From Prevotella sp. (GTDB lineage: Bacteria; Bacteroidota; Bacteroidia; Bacteroidales; Bacteroidaceae): a stretch of 64,000 nt of DNA. The DNA is taken from contig JALEJI010000045.1 in NCBI GenBank assembly GCA_022769825.1, forward strand, positions 22,932 to 86,931. The letters are read 5' to 3'. Made by a program: the position numbers and the translations under genes. This document shows, in pieces, positions 10,300 through 59,005 of this stretch. How positions within the stretch are numbered: position 1 is the stretch's first letter; each line of letters begins with the position of its first letter. The notes under the pieces are model-generated. The model was not told the DNA's origin. It saw nothing but the letters and a program-made list of their open reading frames with translations, and searched no databases.

Positions 10300-10373
10300 T
10301 CGGGGCGACAGGATTCGAACCTGCGACCACCTGGTCCCAAACCAGGAGCGCTACCGGACTGCGCTACACCCCG
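10300..10373 (-). tRNA. tRNA-Pro (TGG)
   Basis: Reverse complement CGGGGTGTAGCGCAGTCCGGTAGCGCTCCTGGTTTGGGACCAGGTGGTCGCAGGTTCGAATCCTGTCGCCCCGA folds as a cloverleaf with anticodon TGG; -7 box at 10397-10404. Confidence 0.97.
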
Positions 10374-11766: not shown

Positions 11767-11853
11767 GCCTGAGACATGGGTGGCATCGGGTGAGAAACAA
11801 CATTTCAGCCACGTTGAATCTTGGTTGAAAGGCAGCATGCACCCACGCTAAAA

Positions 11854-12234
11854 TGTAAAATATTATTGTCGAAATTTAACACTTGGAAACAGGTGCAAAT
11901 AGAGCGGGAAAAAGGCTTGAAGATACCCTTTGGCAGCACCATCAGCCGGTTTTTGACCAAAATCCATTGCCTTTACGGTGTAATCGCGTCGCGATTTCAG
12001 TGTAACGGCGATGCGATTACACTGTAACGGCAACGCGATTACACCGTAACGGCAACGCGATTGCACCGTAACGGCAACGCGAAATCAGCGCATTGGCAAC
12101 GCCTAAAAACCGTAAAACTTATAGACCTTTAATAATCAGCGGATTATGAAAATTACCCATAATCGCGTCATTTCCACGCAAGCGACGACTTAGTTGAAAA
12201 AAATCGATTCTCAGACGACCATTTGTAAAATATT
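11854..12234 (+). mobile_element. Dispersed non-coding element, copy 1 (four 22-bp tandem units)
   Basis: Aligns end to end with 30019-30378 and the reverse complement of 58646-59005; TGTAAAATATT at 11854 and 12224; units at 11991, 12013, 12035, 12057. Mobility is inferred from dispersal only. Confidence 0.8.
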
Positions 12235-12254
12235 TTACAACATCCCTTCTTGCA

Positions 12255-27142: not shown

Positions 27143-29092
27143 TCACAACAGGCCGTATTCATCGGAGTATCTCATCATCTGTTGCGAATAGCCTTCAGTG
27201 TAGTCGAGCGTCACGTCCACGATGTTGCCCTCGGCATCCACCACGGGGTTCATCCTCGGGTTTATGAAGCCCTTGTATGGCGCGATGTGCAGCTTCTCGT
27301 ACCGGCCGAGTATCTCCTTGTGCAAGTCGGCGTCCACCTTCACGCCATAGCGTTCCACCATCGCCTTCGCCGCTTCGTAGTCGCCCTCGCTCTTGATGCG
27401 CTGTATCTCGGCGAGCAGCGAGCCGAAGACCTGGCGCAGGCGCGCGTAGTCGTTCACCCTCACATAGGTCTTGCCGTCCACCGCCACGAGCTCCACGCTT
27501 CCCTCAGCGTGTTCCAGGCACCACCGTGCTATTATGGCCCTGTTGCGCATGTGGGCTTCCTCTATCTGGTCGCCGGGCTTGATTCGCACGAGCTGCGTGA
27601 GCAGGCCGTTCATCAGATAGTGGTAATACTGGCTCTTGTAAGCCTCGGCATCTGGCACCAGGCCAAGCTCCACGAGCTTTTGGTCGGCAAGATAATACAG
27701 GCCGAACAAGTCGGCACGGGCTTCCTCTATGGTACTGCCGTAGGCTTTCAGCGCGTCGGGCGACACGCCGGGCAGCAACTGTCCACTGCCATGGCCGAGA
27801 CACTCGTGAAGGTCGGTGTGGAGGTCGTCGCACAAGTCGCCGTATTCTCTTATCATCTCTCGCGTGGCCTCGTCTATCACGAACTCGTCGTTGAAGCCGT
27901 TGTCCCTCGCCGCCTTGTTGTAGGCGTCGGTAAGGTTGCCTATCGTGACGCTCTTCGAGCCATAGCGCGCCCTTATCCAGTCGGCGTTGGGCAGGTTGAT
28001 GCCTATCGCCGACGACGGGTATTCCTCGCCGCCAAGCATCGCCGCCTGCACCACGTGGGCCGACACGCCCTTCACCTTTGGCTTGCGGAAGCGCGGGTCC
28101 ACGGGCGAATGGTCCTCAAACCACTGCGCGTTGTCGGCGATGGCACGTGTGCGGCGCGTGGCGTTCTCGTCTTTCAGCTCCACTATGCCCTCCCACGTGC
28201 CTTTCAAGCCGAGCGGGTCGCCATAGACCTCTATGAACCCGTTGATGAAGTCGACAGTGCCCTCCTGCTCCTTCAGCCACTCCATGCTGAACTCGTCGAA
28301 ACGTCGCAAGTCACCCGTGGTGTAATAGTCGGTGAGCAGGTCTATCAGCTTCGCCTGCAGGTCGTTCTCGGCCACGCCTTTCGCCTTTTGCAGCCAATAG
28401 ACTATTTTTTTTAGCGCCGGGCCGTAAAGCCCGCGCGTGGTGTATTTTTCTTCTTTCAGCTCGCCGCCGACTCGTGCCAACTTGGAGTTAAGCCCCCACG
28501 ACGGCTGGCAGTCGCCCGCCTCCGGGTCGCGCTTCGAGGCGTAGAAGCTTTCCGCCTCGGCCTGCGTCACGCCATCATAGAAGTTGCATGCCGACGTGAG
28601 CACGAGGTCCTCGCCATCGGCCTGGTTGACGCGCTTGGGCAGCACGGTAGGATCGAACATGACGGGGCAAATGGCGGCAAGCAGCGACGTGGCGTCGGCA
28701 TATCCGCCGATGGGGAAGCTGCCCGACGGCAACGTGCCGACAGCCTCGCGGAACCATGCCTCGGAGAAGCCAGGGACAAACTTCTCGCAGCCATAATGAT
28801 GATATATGCCATTGGAGAACCACACTCGCTTCATGTACACTTCCATCTGCCGGAAGTCGTCGGAATCGTTGGCGGCGCGGTGGCGCGCCACGCTCTCAAG
28901 CGTCTTCCTTATCACGAGGTTGAACCTTCCATATTGATCGGTGGTGATGTCGCGCCCCGCGAGCGTGGCCTTGGCCAGGTAATACACATAAGCTTTCCTC
29001 TTCGCGTCCAGCTCGTCGAAACCGTCTATGCGGTATCTCAGCATCTGTATGTCCGCGAATCGCTCGTCAGAATAATTAAAAGTGTTATCCAT
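27143..29092 (-). CDS. Dipeptidyl peptidase III (M49)
   Basis: HECLGH hexapeptide zinc motif, EEARADL, IGINLPN. Confidence 0.93.
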   Translation of the reverse strand: MDNTFNYSDERFADIQMLRYRIDGFDELDAKRKAYVYYLAKATLAGRDITTDQYGRFNLVIRKTLESVARHRAANDSDDFRQMEVYMKRVWFSNGIYHHYGCEKFVPGFSEAWFREAVGTLPSGSFPIGGYADATSLLAAICPVMFDPTVLPKRVNQADGEDLVLTSACNFYDGVTQAEAESFYASKRDPEAGDCQPSWGLNSKLARVGGELKEEKYTTRGLYGPALKKIVYWLQKAKGVAENDLQAKLIDLLTDYYTTGDLRRFDEFSMEWLKEQEGTVDFINGFIEVYGDPLGLKGTWEGIVELKDENATRRTRAIADNAQWFEDHSPVDPRFRKPKVKGVSAHVVQAAMLGGEEYPSSAIGINLPNADWIRARYGSKSVTIGNLTDAYNKAARDNGFNDEFVIDEATREMIREYGDLCDDLHTDLHECLGHGSGQLLPGVSPDALKAYGSTIEEARADLFGLYYLADQKLVELGLVPDAEAYKSQYYHYLMNGLLTQLVRIKPGDQIEEAHMRNRAIIARWCLEHAEGSVELVAVDGKTYVRVNDYARLRQVFGSLLAEIQRIKSEGDYEAAKAMVERYGVKVDADLHKEILGRYEKLHIAPYKGFINPRMNPVVDAEGNIVDVTLDYTEGYSQQMMRYSDEYGLL

Positions 29093-30018: not shown

Positions 30019-30378
30019 TGTAAAATATTATTGCCGAAATTTAACACTTGAAAGCCAGTGCATTTAGAACGGGAAAACAGCTCAAAGGTGCCCCTTTGTC
30101 AGCATAATCAGTCGGTTTTTGGCCAAAAGCCCTTGCCGTTACAGTGTAATCGCGTCGCCATTTCACCGTAACGGCAACGCGATTGCACTGTAACGGCGAC
30201 GCGATTGCACTGTAACGGCGACGCAAAATCAGCGTTTTGGCAACGCTCTAAAACCGTAAAATTCATAAATTCCTAATAATCAACGATTTATCAAAACGGC
30301 TCATAATCGCGTTATTTTCGACCAAGAGACTGCTTGGTTGAAAAAAATCGATTCTCAGACGACCATTTGTAAAATGTT
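30019..30378 (+). mobile_element. Dispersed non-coding element, copy 2 (three 22-bp tandem units)
   Basis: TGTAAAATATT at 30019 and TGTAAAATGTT at 30368; inverted unit from 30133; direct units at 30157, 30179, 30201. Confidence 0.8.
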
Positions 30379-30411
30379 ATTACCCGATTTAACAGATGTG
30401 CGTCGCCTGCT

Positions 30412-30466
30412 TTGCAGGGTGCGGGTAGGGATGGTTAGGGGCCGTCCGCAACCAATGTGGATGCAT
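30412..30466. repeat. Degenerate member of the REP-like family at 10115
   Basis: Begins TTGCAGGG; CCGTCCGCAACCAATGTGGATGCAT (30442-30466) matches 10134-10158 with one mismatch. Confidence 0.6.
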
Positions 30467-30757: not shown

Positions 30758-30830
30758 GCGTCCTTAGCTCAGCTGGTAGAGCAACTGACTCTTAATCAGT
30801 GGGTCTAGGGTTCGAATCCCTAAGGACGCA
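30758..30830 (+). tRNA. tRNA-Lys (CTT), copy 1
   Basis: GCGTCCTTAGCTCAGCTGGTAGAGCAACTGACTCTTAATCAGTGGGTCTAGGGTTCGAATCCCTAAGGACGCA; anticodon loop CT-CTT-AA. Confidence 0.97.
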
Positions 30831-30853
30831 CTTCTTCTTTATTAAAAAGGCGG

Positions 30854-30929
30854 GCGTCCTTAGCTCAGCTGGTAGAGCAACTGACTCTTAATCAGTGGGT
30901 CTAGGGTTCGAATCCCTAAGGACGCACCA
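30854..30929 (+). tRNA. tRNA-Lys (CTT), copy 2 with encoded CCA
   Basis: Identical 73 nt to copy 1, followed by CCA. Confidence 0.97.
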
Positions 30930-55579: not shown

Positions 55580-56947
55580 TTAAATTCTATCTTTTAATAT
55601 TAAAGCAATATTCTCAACAATACCAGTCACAAGCGCATTGCCCATAAGGAAAGCACGGCGCAAGTCGGACGAGCCAAAGGTATGGTTGTCGGGGAACATA
55701 TTCAAACGTTCCAATTCCACAGGCACAAGTCGGCGATAACGGCCGCTCTCTGTCTTGATGATATGCTTGAAGCGTGAAGGACCAGCACCGCCTTCACCTG
55801 TGATGATGGTTCTTGAAGCACGGTCAAGATAGTCAGGAAAAGCCATTGCACCCTCGCTATAATTATACTCAAACCCTGTAGCCTTGTTGATACGTTTTAA
55901 TGACTTTGAACCTTTCTGATACTCCCATTTAGGTAAGTCTTCGTCTGAAATAAAGAACTCTTTAGGTACTGTTATCTCATCAACAAGTACATCGCCAAGT
56001 GTGATGTAAGGACCATCATACTTAGGAAGCGTGTCAAGAGTATAAACCTTACCATTTGCCATTACACCAGAGTTTTTGAATGGGCTTTCCTTTTTGCCTT
56101 TGTTGAAGTTATCTGAAACCTCGGCTATGTCATCACTAATATCAAAAGAGTTTGTCTTGCCATCTTTTTCCTGGCAGCTGAAAGCCTGTGGCATGATTCC
56201 TTCTTCGAGAATCCAATCAAACTTATTGCTCAATTCTTCAAATTGTGCAGCAAGTTTCGTTCCTTGATGATAAGCAACCATATATGTACGACGTCGGCGT
56301 TGTGGCATTCCGTAATCAGCAGCGTTGATGATACGCCATTCCACAATATAACCGAGACTTGACAAAGAAGAGAGGATGATGGCGAAATCACGACCACGCT
56401 GTTTGGCTGGTGAATTAAGCAGACGGTCAACATTCTCCAACATCAGATAGTTCGGACGCTTGTCACCCTTTTCTTTCAATATGCGATAGATTTGCCACCA
56501 AAGCACGCCTTTTTTGCCCTCAATACCACCAGAACGTTGTAATGTAGTGGCTACGGAATAATCTTGGCAAGGGAAACCGCCACAAAGCAAATCGCTGTCA
56601 GGTATTTCATCCGTAGGTACAGTTGCAATGTCTTCATTGGAATGTCCATCTGCACCAAAATGTCTGCAATAAATAATACTTGCATCTTGGCGTTTAGTGG
56701 ATGGCTCCCATTGGTTGCTCCAAATTGTTTTGAAATGCTTAGAAGCACGTTCTAATCCTACTCTAAATCCACCGACACCAGCGAATAGTTCTACAACTTT
56801 TATATCGTTGGCTTCCACATCGGGGCGAATGTTGTCAAACAGTCCAAGTTCTCTCACTCGCTGATGTGTTATCTCGGAATATCTTGCGATTGGCTCGCAC
56901 AACATCCAATTGCCACCCATTTCTGTATCTTCTATCTTATAATTCAT
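55580..56947 (-). CDS. DNA (cytosine-5) methyltransferase, M.Sau3AI-like
   Basis: Motif I VVELFAGVGG, IV GGFPCQDYS, VI ENV, VIII QRRRR, X GNA; NQWEPS, GKKGVL.WQI, ENVDRLL.SP..QRGRDFA and YSEG.M resemble M.Sau3AI as recalled; ATG at 56947 overlaps the endonuclease stop. Confidence 0.92.
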   Translation of the reverse strand: MNYKIEDTEMGGNWMLCEPIARYSEITHQRVRELGLFDNIRPDVEANDIKVVELFAGVGGFRVGLERASKHFKTIWSNQWEPSTKRQDASIIYCRHFGADGHSNEDIATVPTDEIPDSDLLCGGFPCQDYSVATTLQRSGGIEGKKGVLWWQIYRILKEKGDKRPNYLMLENVDRLLNSPAKQRGRDFAIILSSLSSLGYIVEWRIINAADYGMPQRRRRTYMVAYHQGTKLAAQFEELSNKFDWILEEGIMPQAFSCQEKDGKTNSFDISDDIAEVSDNFNKGKKESPFKNSGVMANGKVYTLDTLPKYDGPYITLGDVLVDEITVPKEFFISDEDLPKWEYQKGSKSLKRINKATGFEYNYSEGAMAFPDYLDRASRTIITGEGGAGPSRFKHIIKTESGRYRRLVPVELERLNMFPDNHTFGSSDLRRAFLMGNALVTGIVENIALILKDRI

Positions 56948-58349
56948 TTTCAATGATATTCTTTACGTATTCCTGATTAAACCAATAACAATATTTCTTG
57001 ACCATTCCTCCATTCGGATTCTCTGTCATGTCATTTGCAACCCTCGCCTTTGGACGGACATGGAAGTTCTTGTTATCCTTAGCACTCCAAAAATATTGTG
57101 GAGCGATGTGATTGTCCAAAACACTTTGCCGTATGTTGTTCCAATATCGTTGAGCCATTTGTAAATCTTCTTGTGGCATAGTCCAAAAGGCAATCTTTTC
57201 CAATTTGTACTCAGGTTCGGCCTTTCCATTTGGTAACTGCAACATATTGTCTGTCTCACGGAATATAACAAACAAAAAACGATTTGTGAAAAGTTCATAC
57301 AATCTTGAATCCGTCCATTCCTCACAGTCGAAAACTTCTTGATAGTCTATATTCTCGAAAGACATGGCTTCCTTGATGCTTCCTGTTTTCTTTATTCGGA
57401 TTGTCTTCATCGTCAAGCCGGACTTCTCAAATTCTTCCGACTTATTGACATTGCCCACATTGCCCTTTCCTGCTATCGTGTTGGAAATGATAAAGTACTT
57501 TGACTTTGAGGTTGACGGTTCAATATTGAGCATGGCACATATTTGCCGATATGTTTTACCACAATAATTTTTGAATCTACCCAACAGAATTTCATCAACA
57601 GACTTATTCTTCAATTCCTCAACAGAGAACATAGTTTCCATTGTAGGCTTGGGGAGTTCATAGTTGCAATAAGCACCGTCTTGATTATTCTTCTTCACCT
57701 CATCGAGTACGATGCGCATGTATGCAGTTTTCAAACTCCATGCGCGGCGAGGTGCTTTAATCTCGTTATTGTGCTGTGGCATAAGCGAATCGCCTTTTTG
57801 CCCCTTTCGACAAGCACCGAGATACATCGTGTCACCCTCAGACAAGGTATGCGCCTGCCCATTCCTTATCTTCGTGATAATAGTATCGTAATCCTTACGG
57901 ATAATCAACAAGTCTTTCTCAGGAATCTTCCACAACACAGCGAAAAGAAACTGTAAGTCAAGTTTTGAAACCTTAGGATTATGCAAATAGAACATGATGA
58001 GCATAATCAAGCATTTGTGGTAGAAGTGTGATTCCTCAAAGGACTTGTTCCAGTCTGACGTATAATTTATCAAGCTGCATACAAGCCTTTCCTTTATCAG
58101 CAATTCTTCCTTTGCGGATTTTTTCAATGGAGTGCACTTCAACTCTGCATTAACGAAAGCAAAGTCTGCCTCCTGCCGAGAATTGAGGTCATACTTGAAG
58201 AACAGTTCTTCCACTAATTGTCCCAAGCTACCTTTGCCCTTATGTACTTCGGCATCGGGTGCAAAATCTCGCAAGCACTTGTTCACCAACTGCTTGCTAT
58301 AATTGAATATTGATGTAATGTCCTTTTCGTTGTATGGTAAATTTGCCAT
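56937..58349 (-). CDS. Type II restriction endonuclease, Sau3AI/MutH family
   Basis: KGSLGQLVEE, ADF...ELKCTP, KERL, LSEGDTMYLGACRKG, then a second MutH-like half (KTIR, KEAMSF, HVRPKA, YWFN). Confidence 0.9.
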   Translation of the reverse strand: MANLPYNEKDITSIFNYSKQLVNKCLRDFAPDAEVHKGKGSLGQLVEELFFKYDLNSRQEADFAFVNAELKCTPLKKSAKEELLIKERLVCSLINYTSDWNKSFEESHFYHKCLIMLIMFYLHNPKVSKLDLQFLFAVLWKIPEKDLLIIRKDYDTIITKIRNGQAHTLSEGDTMYLGACRKGQKGDSLMPQHNNEIKAPRRAWSLKTAYMRIVLDEVKKNNQDGAYCNYELPKPTMETMFSVEELKNKSVDEILLGRFKNYCGKTYRQICAMLNIEPSTSKSKYFIISNTIAGKGNVGNVNKSEEFEKSGLTMKTIRIKKTGSIKEAMSFENIDYQEVFDCEEWTDSRLYELFTNRFLFVIFRETDNMLQLPNGKAEPEYKLEKIAFWTMPQEDLQMAQRYWNNIRQSVLDNHIAPQYFWSAKDNKNFHVRPKARVANDMTENPNGGMVKKYCYWFNQEYVKNIIENEL

Positions 58350-58645: not shown

Positions 58646-59005
58646 AATATTTTACAAATGGTCGTCTGAGAATCGATTTTTTTCAACCAAGCAGTCTCTT
58701 CGCTCGAAATAACGCGATTATGGGCCGCTTTGGTAAATCGTTGATTATTAGAAACTTATGAATTTTACGGTTTTAGAGCGTTGCCAAAACGCTGATTTTG
58801 CGTCGCCGTTACAGTGCAATCGCGATGCCGTTACGGTGTAATCGCGTTGCCGTTACGGTGAAATGGCGACGCGATTACACTGTAACGGCAACGCCTTTTG
58901 GCCAAAAACCTACTGGAGACGCTGCCAAAGGGGCACCTCGAAGCCATTTTTCCGCTCTATTTGCCCATGTTTCCAAGTGTTAAATTTCGGCAATAATATT
59001 TTACA
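58646..59005 (-). mobile_element. Dispersed non-coding element, copy 3 (three 22-bp tandem units)
   Basis: Reverse complement aligns with copies 1 and 2; AATATTTTACA at 58646-58656 and 58995-59005. Confidence 0.8.

What the first reader, a model, noticed from the sequence alone, without database searches (positions are those of the whole stretch)
11854..12234. Dispersed ~360-380 bp non-coding element with the same 11-bp direct repeat at both ends (three copies)
Seen: three intergenic copies (11854-12234 +, 30019-30378 +, 58646-59005 -) align end to end despite many substitutions, and their wider flanks are unrelated. Each begins and ends with TGTAAAATATT, except the right end of copy 2 (TGTAAAATGTT). 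Repeat-to-repeat distances are 370, 349 and 349 bp. There is no conserved ORF, no long terminal inverted repeat, and no transposase or integrase in the window. Established: IS-derived MITEs usually have terminal inverted repeats and target duplications that vary by site, whereas an invariant direct repeat is typical of an att core or a sequence-specific target. Inference: this is a non-autonomous, site-specifically inserting element that could excise as a ~349-bp circle, or a dispersed protein-binding or RNA module. I do not recognise it as a described family.
Basis: partly seen in the sequence, partly recalled or inferred. Interest (0 to 1): 0.82.

Follow-up and report, generated by a model that had tools for sequence, protein, structure and literature searches.

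The report
Phase-locked mobile repeat of gut Prevotella
The three stretches are copies of a 380-base non-coding repeat present about 85 times between the genes of this pig-gut Prevotella; it resembles the known but unexplained Prevotella repeat PINSR and is likely a passive mobile element moved by enzymes encoded elsewhere, some copies probably by an ordinary insertion-sequence transposase.

Summary
The 11-bp repeat is not a duplicated target. It is exact at both ends in only 43 of 75 copies, and the ~110 copies in a sister genome have unlike ends. Each end is part of a 27-28-bp dyad site. Between them lie a 22-bp palindromic minisatellite and an IHF-like motif, and length changes mostly in steps of 11 or 22 bp. 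The same frame occurs in 24 of 330 genus genomes with lineage-specific array units and shows weak sequence similarity to PINSR (Naito 2016). Signs of mobility: a site filled in a sister species holds one 11-mer here; 21 copies lie next to ISL3-type inverted repeats, and one such composite sits at a site empty in this genome. No circle junction, no core-only new insertion and no cognate recombinase was found. Verdict: a new, longer variant of PINSR/BrickBuilt-type repeats, probably a non-autonomous element moved in trans. This scan noted related 22-bp-array and PINSR-type repeats in other Prevotella genomes before.

The parts
11854..12239 (+). Copy 1 of the repeat core (381 bp to the end of the second 11-mer; the five further bases complete a palindromic right site)
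11854..11881 (+). Left 28-bp dyad site (TGTAAA-N16-TTAACA), the most conserved part; motif found in 24 of 330 genus genomes
11966..12077 (+). 22-bp near-palindromic minisatellite of copy 1 (units carry TTRC-N3-GYAA); gains and loses whole units between strains
12134..12146 (+). IHF-consensus-like motif (consensus recalled, from no call); present in 43 of 75 copies
12224..12239 (+). Right end site of copy 1, a 16-bp palindrome that reads both as direct and as inverted repeat of the left end
   Evidence: D4, I5, I8
11831..11853 (+). Remnant of the recurrent left arm beside copy 1
30019..30378 (+). Copy 2 of the core, one 22-bp unit shorter
30368..30394 (+). Right 27-bp dyad site of copy 2 (TGTAAA-N15-TTAACA), an imperfect direct repeat of the left site
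30409..30453 (+). REP-like sequence in the right arm of copy 2, of the type that flanks the RAYT gene on contig C74
30488..30513 (-). ISL3-type terminal inverted repeat closing the right arm of copy 2
58646..59005 (-). Copy 3 of the core, 90% identical to copy 2

Best explanation
This is a non-coding intergenic repeat, amplified to about 85 copies in one species, that resembles PINSR and is likely a non-autonomous mobile DNA element: two dyad end sites, probably held in helical phase around a predicted host-factor bend and a 22-bp palindrome array, would be brought together and moved by a recombinase supplied in trans, most likely a Bacteroidales CTn/MTn-type tyrosine integrase. Both end sites belong to the element; neither is a duplicated target. 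Shown: copy number, frame, length steps, gain and loss between species, one filled/solo pair. A second engine is better documented: a subset of cores is bracketed by ISL3 terminal repeats and has probably moved as composite MITEs by ISL3 transposase. After insertion copies persist for long times; their interiors change faster than synonymous sites, probably by gene conversion among copies, while the end sites stay nearly fixed. Inferred and untested: protein binding, the synapse, any circle, and the identity of the enzyme (tyrosine integrase about 0.35 on its own).
For: 75 complete copies, none overlapping a called gene. Ends 0.5-1.2% variable between strains vs 2-5% inside. Array indels are mostly multiples of 22; six sites carry a net 11-bp loss outside the array; A+T period 10.5 bp in the left arm, 0 of 500 shuffles. 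Left site in 24 of 330 genomes, reversed control 0; best period 22 in 23 of 30 loci with unlike units, and a second TGT site 345-413 bp on in 23 of 30; in L317/L321 both 11-mers changed together. PINSR profile scores 68 of 75 cores over 5 bits and 28 over 10 bits, vs 1 of 300 shuffles and 0 of 248 other intergenic regions over 10. Presence/absence between species; filled in G417, solo in G000; second solo spanned in 4 of 4 runs. No flanking duplication of 3 bp or more in at least 74 of 75 copies under each of seven end definitions, as expected of tyrosine-recombinase elements (established knowledge). Array units match the att core of MTnPi1/2, TT(A/G)C-N5-AA (PMC4755523 Table S3). PINSR-rich G166 has no ISL3-type repeat, so the class can amplify without it. 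ISL3 layer.
Against: No autonomous partner found: no left end followed by a long ORF in 30 genus loci or in the metagenome loci with enough sequence; G000 holds only XerC/D-sized proteins, one integrase at a tRNA with other arm sites and one fragment. No circle or empty-site joint in four runs among 15 rows shown, 41 hidden. Of 117 strain loci 90 are shared with G000, 19 unmapped, and only one (L130, a composite) is a clean new insertion. A solo 11-mer can arise by slippage between 11-15-bp repeats without any enzyme. The att-core match is a 6-base pattern and fails for the G418 array and several others. PINSR similarity is weak, lies mostly in the palindromic array, hits both strands (39 plus, 29 minus) and is near noise for G418 copies, so convergence is possible. 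1-bp indels are common, so the phase rule is not strict.
Confidence: 0.55

Rival explanations
1. The only mobile unit is a ~580-bp ISL3 MITE; the 381-bp core is its cargo, and copies without terminal repeats are eroded relics.
For: 21 of 28 ISL3-like repeats in G000 lie 36-178 bp from a core end; same association in G418. The repeat equals the ends of a 1314-bp IS with an ISL3 transposase and 8-bp duplication. Composite inserted at a site empty in G000; a 94-96% identical composite in G469, whose genes are 76-81% identical. Repeat-bearing cores are scattered over the tree (13 changes for 15 rows; 163 of 500 shuffles as low). L263 is a 711-bp ISL3-ended unit with perfect 8-bp duplication and a core homolog inside.
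Against: Core borders are sharp while 49 of 75 copies keep no recognisable left arm and 38 no right arm; left and right arm retention are independent (Fisher p=1). Arms and repeat types differ between G000 and G418, pointing to separate captures. 28 of 30 genus loci had no such repeat except L319 and L333. None of seven units with both repeats visible has a perfect 8-bp duplication. PINSR amplified without these repeats.
Confidence: 0.2
2. The copies are kept by the host as DNA-architecture or regulatory modules (docking arrays for a nucleoid protein such as an HU-HIG protein), spread by ISL3 and conversion, and are not mobile on their own.
For: Sites are stable: 90 of 95 mappable strain loci shared; some loci shared across species at 84-90% gene identity (6 of 15 mapped G417 copies, 7 of 33 G418 copies). 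Column-specific conservation and helical periodicity. 22-bp arrays precede several HU-HIG genes, also in G000.
Against: Copy number ranges from 1-5 to over 100 among relatives; most orthologous sites are empty in sister species. The array upstream of the G000 HU-HIG gene has another unit. No preferred orientation to genes: 23 convergent, 17 divergent, 25 tandem.
Confidence: 0.15
3. The core is a long linker of a REP/RAYT mosaic repeat (BIME/REPIN-like), moved by the genome's RAYT nuclease.
For: G000 has a RAYT gene flanked by REPs; 44 of 75 cores have a REP-like motif within 100 bp on the right, 16 on the left; 48 of 102 REP-like starts lie within 150 bp of a core.
Against: The core holds no REP of that type; 31 of 75 have none on the right; G418 cores and PINSR copies show no such flank in the loci read. 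Shared intergenic space may explain part of the link.
Confidence: 0.07
4. The repeat is a structured non-coding RNA family.
Against: The fold comes from the palindromic array; the consensus structure over 40 copies from four genomes is -1.4 kcal/mol with a positive folding term; no Rfam match; periodicity and length steps fit double-stranded DNA.
Confidence: 0.03

Closest known systems
[quoted passage not shown]
   Same: Non-coding, intergenic, amplified to over 100 copies, mostly shared between strains, no long terminal inverted repeat. Copies found with the published primer show TGTAAA at one end and TTTACA at the other, a 22-bp TTGC-N3-GTAA array and the IHF-like motif in the same order; profile similarity above shuffles and intergenic controls.
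   Different: About 186-188 bp vs 381; the published primer has no match in G000 at three mismatches; host lies outside the group named; the longer arms, the second dyad site in direct orientation and the ISL3 arms are not described for PINSR.
BrickBuilt MITE of Porphyromonas gingivalis (Klein et al., PMC4596501)
   Same: Intergenic, leader-minisatellite-tail layout, whole-unit gain and loss between strains, long predicted hairpin, patchy retention of ends.
   Different: 23-nt unit of other sequence, 1-23 units, 19 copies, IS5-type 12-bp terminal repeats. Here unit number is nearly fixed, ends are 27-28-bp dyads, and captured ends are ISL3-type.
ISL3 family IS and its ~256-bp MITEs in Prevotella
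   Same: The 24-26-bp repeats beside 21 cores match the ends of a 1314-bp IS encoding PF01610/PF13542/PF14690.
   Different: The core itself has no ISL3 sequence; most cores lack these repeats; 8-bp duplications were not seen at the G000/G418 composites.
Bacteroidales mobilizable transposons MTnPi1-3 (tyrosine integrases; PMC4755523)
   Same: No target duplication; 11-bp att core TT(A/G)C-N5-AA recurs in the array units of G000, G417 and PINSR.
   Different: MTns are 16-18 kb and encode their integrases; here the match lies inside the array, not at the ends, and no integrase is linked.
REP/BIME/REPIN mosaics with RAYT
   Same: REP-like hairpins adjoin 44 of 75 right ends; a REPtron is in the genome.
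   Different: The core is ten times a REP's length, holds no such REP and has its own conserved ends.

Membership tests
PINSR | 188-bp consensus, detectable with primer PINSR-F | tested here: not met
   0 matches in G000 at three mismatches, 78 in G166; length 381
PINSR | Intergenic, non-coding, high copy, no long terminal inverted repeat | tested here: met
PINSR | Sequence homology to PINSR copies | tested here: inconclusive
   68 of 75 over 5 bits, 28 over 10, best 23.8; controls 1 of 300 and 0 of 248 over 10; hits on both strands
ISL3-derived MITE (composite form) | Terminal inverted repeats shared with an autonomous ISL3 | tested here: met
   8 left and 13 right repeats beside cores in G000; IS with same ends and ISL3 transposase. 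Not met for most copies.
ISL3-derived MITE (composite form) | 8-bp target duplication | tested here: not met
   0 of 7 G000/G418/G469-type units with both ends visible; met only in L263 of G394
ISL3-derived MITE (composite form) | Insertion polymorphism at the repeat boundary | tested here: met
   L130 vs G000 C57:9832, left junction only
Site-specific integrative element with duplicated att core | Identical core at both ends derived from the target | tested here: not met
   exact in 43 of 75; unlike ends in G418 family
Site-specific integrative element with duplicated att core | Empty site with a single core | tested here: met
   two solo sites, one filled in G417, one spanned in 4 of 4 runs; direction of the event unknown
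Site-specific integrative element with duplicated att core | Circular intermediate | tested here: inconclusive
   no such joint among 15 rows shown, 41 hidden; contigs only
Site-specific integrative element with duplicated att core | Cognate recombinase acting on the ends | not testable with these tools
   no linked gene found
BrickBuilt | IS5-type 12-bp terminal repeats and 23-nt unit | tested here: not met
   paper Table 2 vs ends and 22-bp unit here
REPIN/BIME | Built from the REPs that flank the RAYT gene | tested here: not met
   REPs lie in flanks, not in the core
Structured ncRNA | Conserved secondary structure with covariation | tested here: not met
   Rfam none

The most novel reading that the evidence does not exclude
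Prevotella carries a genus-wide class of minimal mobile elements, PINSR included, that consist only of a recombination substrate: two dyad sites locked in helical phase (spacing near 349, 359, 370, 381, 403, 412 bp), a host-factor bend and a lineage-specific 22-bp docking array. A borrowed tyrosine recombinase excises and reinserts them as 350-410-bp circles, and they double as hubs for gene conversion and genome rearrangement.
Probability: 0.3. Interest if true: 0.75.

Novelty: new variant of a known kind. Interest (0 to 1): 0.5.

Why it matters
PINSR was described as a repeat of unknown source and function. This family supplies what PINSR lacked: defined end sites conserved across the genus, a length rule in helical turns, a filled/solo pair and an ISL3-captured form with a polymorphic insertion. 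That turns an unexplained 1% of a gut bacterium's genome into a testable substrate for recombinases and nucleoid proteins. The copies also break short-read assemblies and are fast strain markers. If only ISL3 moves them, the finding is a routine composite MITE.

Tried and rejected
Rfam at gathering level: only tRNAs. Plasmid and phage collections, blastn: no match. 69 viral-contig loci with a 16-mer match: none scored with the element profile. IS110 transposase in G000: none, assembly 86% complete. BLAST of one copy against 40 relatives: two weak hits only; the family is too diverged for single-sequence search. Xer/dif reading of the 28-bp site: inner motifs do not fit the dif pattern (recalled; no call). 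MTnPi att core at the element ends: fails, conserved positions fall in the N5 part (profile). HU-HIG upstream arrays as source of the unit: period 22 present, unit different. C18:69089, arms joined without a core, as the ancestral target: the whole 140 bp is absent from three sister genomes, so direction is open. Strand bias to GC skew: 42 vs 33, none. Sigma-70 scan is not informative for Bacteroidota promoters. PINSR primer in ten chosen genomes: none. A profile search of whole genomes with the DNA alignment was not available, so genus counts rest on short patterns and are lower bounds. ISfinder was not available. Supplement file 1 of PMC4755523 could not be searched and its Fig. 4A consensus is not held as text; PINSR copies were located by the primer instead.

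Full report
Observation. The 370 vs 349 spacing is one unit of an internal 22-bp near-palindromic array. The window has no Rfam match but three tRNAs. The genome holds 75 complete copies over 100 bp (three of 78 pairs dropped: two spurious 11-bp pairs, one cut by a contig end) and 85 left ends, 1.2% of the assembly; 45 of 78 pairs are 381 bp. Median pairwise identity is 77%. None overlaps a gene of my crude caller; of 65 with two neighbours 23 are convergent, 17 divergent, 25 tandem. DNA runs that hold the region are pig gut by their record; close homologs lie in records titled Prevotella.

The ends. The left 11-mer is exact in 70 of 75 copies, the right in 46, both alike in 43; no flanking duplication of 3 bp or more occurs in more than one copy under any of seven end definitions. 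The left end is a 28-bp dyad, TGTAAA-N16-TTAACA; many right ends continue into a 27-bp version or a palindrome. In G418 (113 motif hits) the two 11-mers differ and the right end closes in TTTTTCA; G417 (22 hits) has G000-type ends. So both sites belong to the element, and the 11-mer is not a duplicated target.

Length rule. In 131 copies (75 of G000, 56 from other strains) array indels were -22 (17), -44 (6), -66, -88 and +22 (5), with a few exceptions (-36, -96, +10). Outside the array six sites carry a net 11-bp loss, two of them perhaps one event; one copy lost 237 bp; 1-bp indels are common. A+T content has a 10.5-bp period in positions 33-112 (0 of 500 shuffles; 44 full-length copies). 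An IHF-like motif (consensus recalled) is in 43 of 75. A 40-copy alignment from four genomes gives no consensus RNA structure, although single copies fold. This reads as a double-stranded, protein-bound architecture (inference).

Spread in the genus. An 18-mer of the right end is in 8 of 400 other genomes, two of those loci being chance hits in a gene. The left-site pattern is in 24 of 330, reversed control 0. Of 30 loci read, 23 have their best period at 22 bp with lineage-specific units, and 23 show a second TGT site 345-413 bp on, clustering near 349, 359, 370, 381 and 403; in L317/L321 both 11-mers changed together; none has a long ORF right behind the left end. G272/G420 and G418/G477 give identical coordinates and count once.

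Relation to PINSR. Naito et al. (PMC4755523; I read passages, section 3.2 part 1, section 3.4, primer rows of Table S2 and Table S3) describe a 188-bp intergenic repeat in 177-184 copies, about three quarters shared between strains, source unknown. The published primer found it in 3 of 200 genomes, not in G000. Read on the other strand its copies run TGTAAA end, 22-bp TTGC-N3-GTAA array, IHF-like motif, TTTACA end, the order seen here. A profile of 24 copies scores 68 of 75 cores over 5 bits and 28 over 10; 1 of 300 shuffles and 0 of 248 other intergenic regions pass 10. Hits fall on both strands and are weak for G418. Common descent is likely, convergence not excluded. BrickBuilt (PMC4596501; parts 1-4 of 9 read) shares the leader-array-tail plan but has IS5 ends. 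PMC5771137 was seen as passages only. Five searches (listings only) showed no paper on this 381-bp family.

Mobility of the core. A weight matrix of flank-11-mer-flank found two solo sites, C37:3553 and C85:11218. The first is spanned as solo in 4 of 4 runs. At the second, G417 has a full core after the same left flank (its right side is cut by a contig end). Between species most sites differ: G000 has a core next to the orthologous gene for 6 of 15 mapped G417 copies, 7 of 33 G418 copies and 0 of 5 G419 copies; several syntenic gaps are clean of any core. Within the species sites are stable: copies 1 and 2 are present in four runs, with no skipping or circle joint among 15 rows shown and 41 hidden; of 117 metagenome loci 90 are shared, 19 unmapped, 3 too short, 1 at a contig end and 4 lack a core in G000, of which three are flank rearrangements and one a clean insertion. 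A solo can come from slippage, so enzyme-driven excision is not shown.

The ISL3 layer. Recurrent arms beside the cores end in a 26-bp repeat: 8 left and 13 right of 28 hits in G000, copy 2 included; 7 have no core. The repeat matches the ends of a 1314-bp IS with a 404-aa ISL3 transposase and an 8-bp duplication, and of ~256-bp MITEs; the pattern is in 76 of 300 genomes. L130 has the composite at a point that is empty in G000. G469 has a composite 94-96% identical in its core while its genes are 76-81% identical: transfer between species or a misplaced contig. Against ISL3 as sole engine: 49 of 75 copies keep no left arm and 38 no right arm by my score; arm retention is independent; G418 has other arms; none of seven two-ended units has a perfect duplication; PINSR-rich G166 has no such repeat. 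Repeat-bearing cores are not clustered on a poorly resolved tree of 73 copies. The ISL3 fragment in G000 has another end.

Evolution in place. Against other strains the elements differ at 3.05% of sites, four-fold sites at 2.0%, other intergenic DNA at 1.6%; 33% of successive changes lie within 5 bp vs 14% expected (72 alignments). The first 33 bp differ at 0.5%, the segment after the array at 5.1%; 77% of 242 variants are alleles common among paralogs vs 24% in a simple null (30 loci, 22 sites). This suggests conversion among copies; uneven constraint between columns could give part of the signal.

Partner. G000 has two XerC/D-sized recombinases, one integrase beside a tRNA with other arm sites, one integrase fragment, a RAYT and no IS110. 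REP-like motifs adjoin 44 of 75 right ends. The absence of target duplication, the IHF-like motif and array units matching the MTnPi1/2 att core make a tyrosine integrase in trans the best guess; it is an inference.

Verdict. A real, species-amplified member of a genus-wide class of phased repeats that works like a non-autonomous element, is akin to PINSR without meeting its definition, and is in part a cargo of ISL3 ends. New variant of a known kind; interest 0.5.

Noticed in passing
L042:1426-1971 (G000 C74, about 27180-27725): RAYT (Y1_Tnp) gene flanked on both sides by inverted REP-like repeats; about 100 REP-like starts in the genome.
   Followed up: partly
G000 C14:38454-38709; L268, L269, L275, L277, L282-L284, L286: ISL3-ended MITEs keep a length of 254-258 bp across species although most interiors look unrelated, suggesting a length constraint.
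   Followed up: no
L382, L383, L384, L392, L397, L402, L411 upstream regions: 22-bp-period arrays with differing units upstream of HU-HIG genes in G000, G418 and G166.
   Followed up: partly
G000 C24:1190-1440 (L369): A tyrosine integrase 3' fragment fused to a left arm with an ISL3-type repeat but no core.
   Followed up: partly
L028 (G000 C18:3590-3960): A single copy of another subfamily, with ends like those of G418/G419 copies.
   Followed up: partly
L050, L073, L076: Copies in records titled Lachnospiraceae and E. coli; flanking genes are 81-88% identical to G000, so the contigs are probably Prevotella DNA binned elsewhere.
   Followed up: partly
L115, L129, L138, L143, L154, L175, L193: Strain contigs in which the DNA beyond one arm of a shared copy is replaced, hinting at rearrangement or insertion hot spots (assembly chimeras not excluded).
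   Followed up: partly
window 56937-58349 (-): 470-aa protein with MutH-type nuclease domains next to copy 3, probably a restriction endonuclease.
   Followed up: no
window 30758-30926 (+) and 10300-10373 (-): Two tandem tRNA genes 250 bp beyond the ISL3-type repeat of copy 2, and one upstream of the porin-like gene before copy 1.
   Followed up: no
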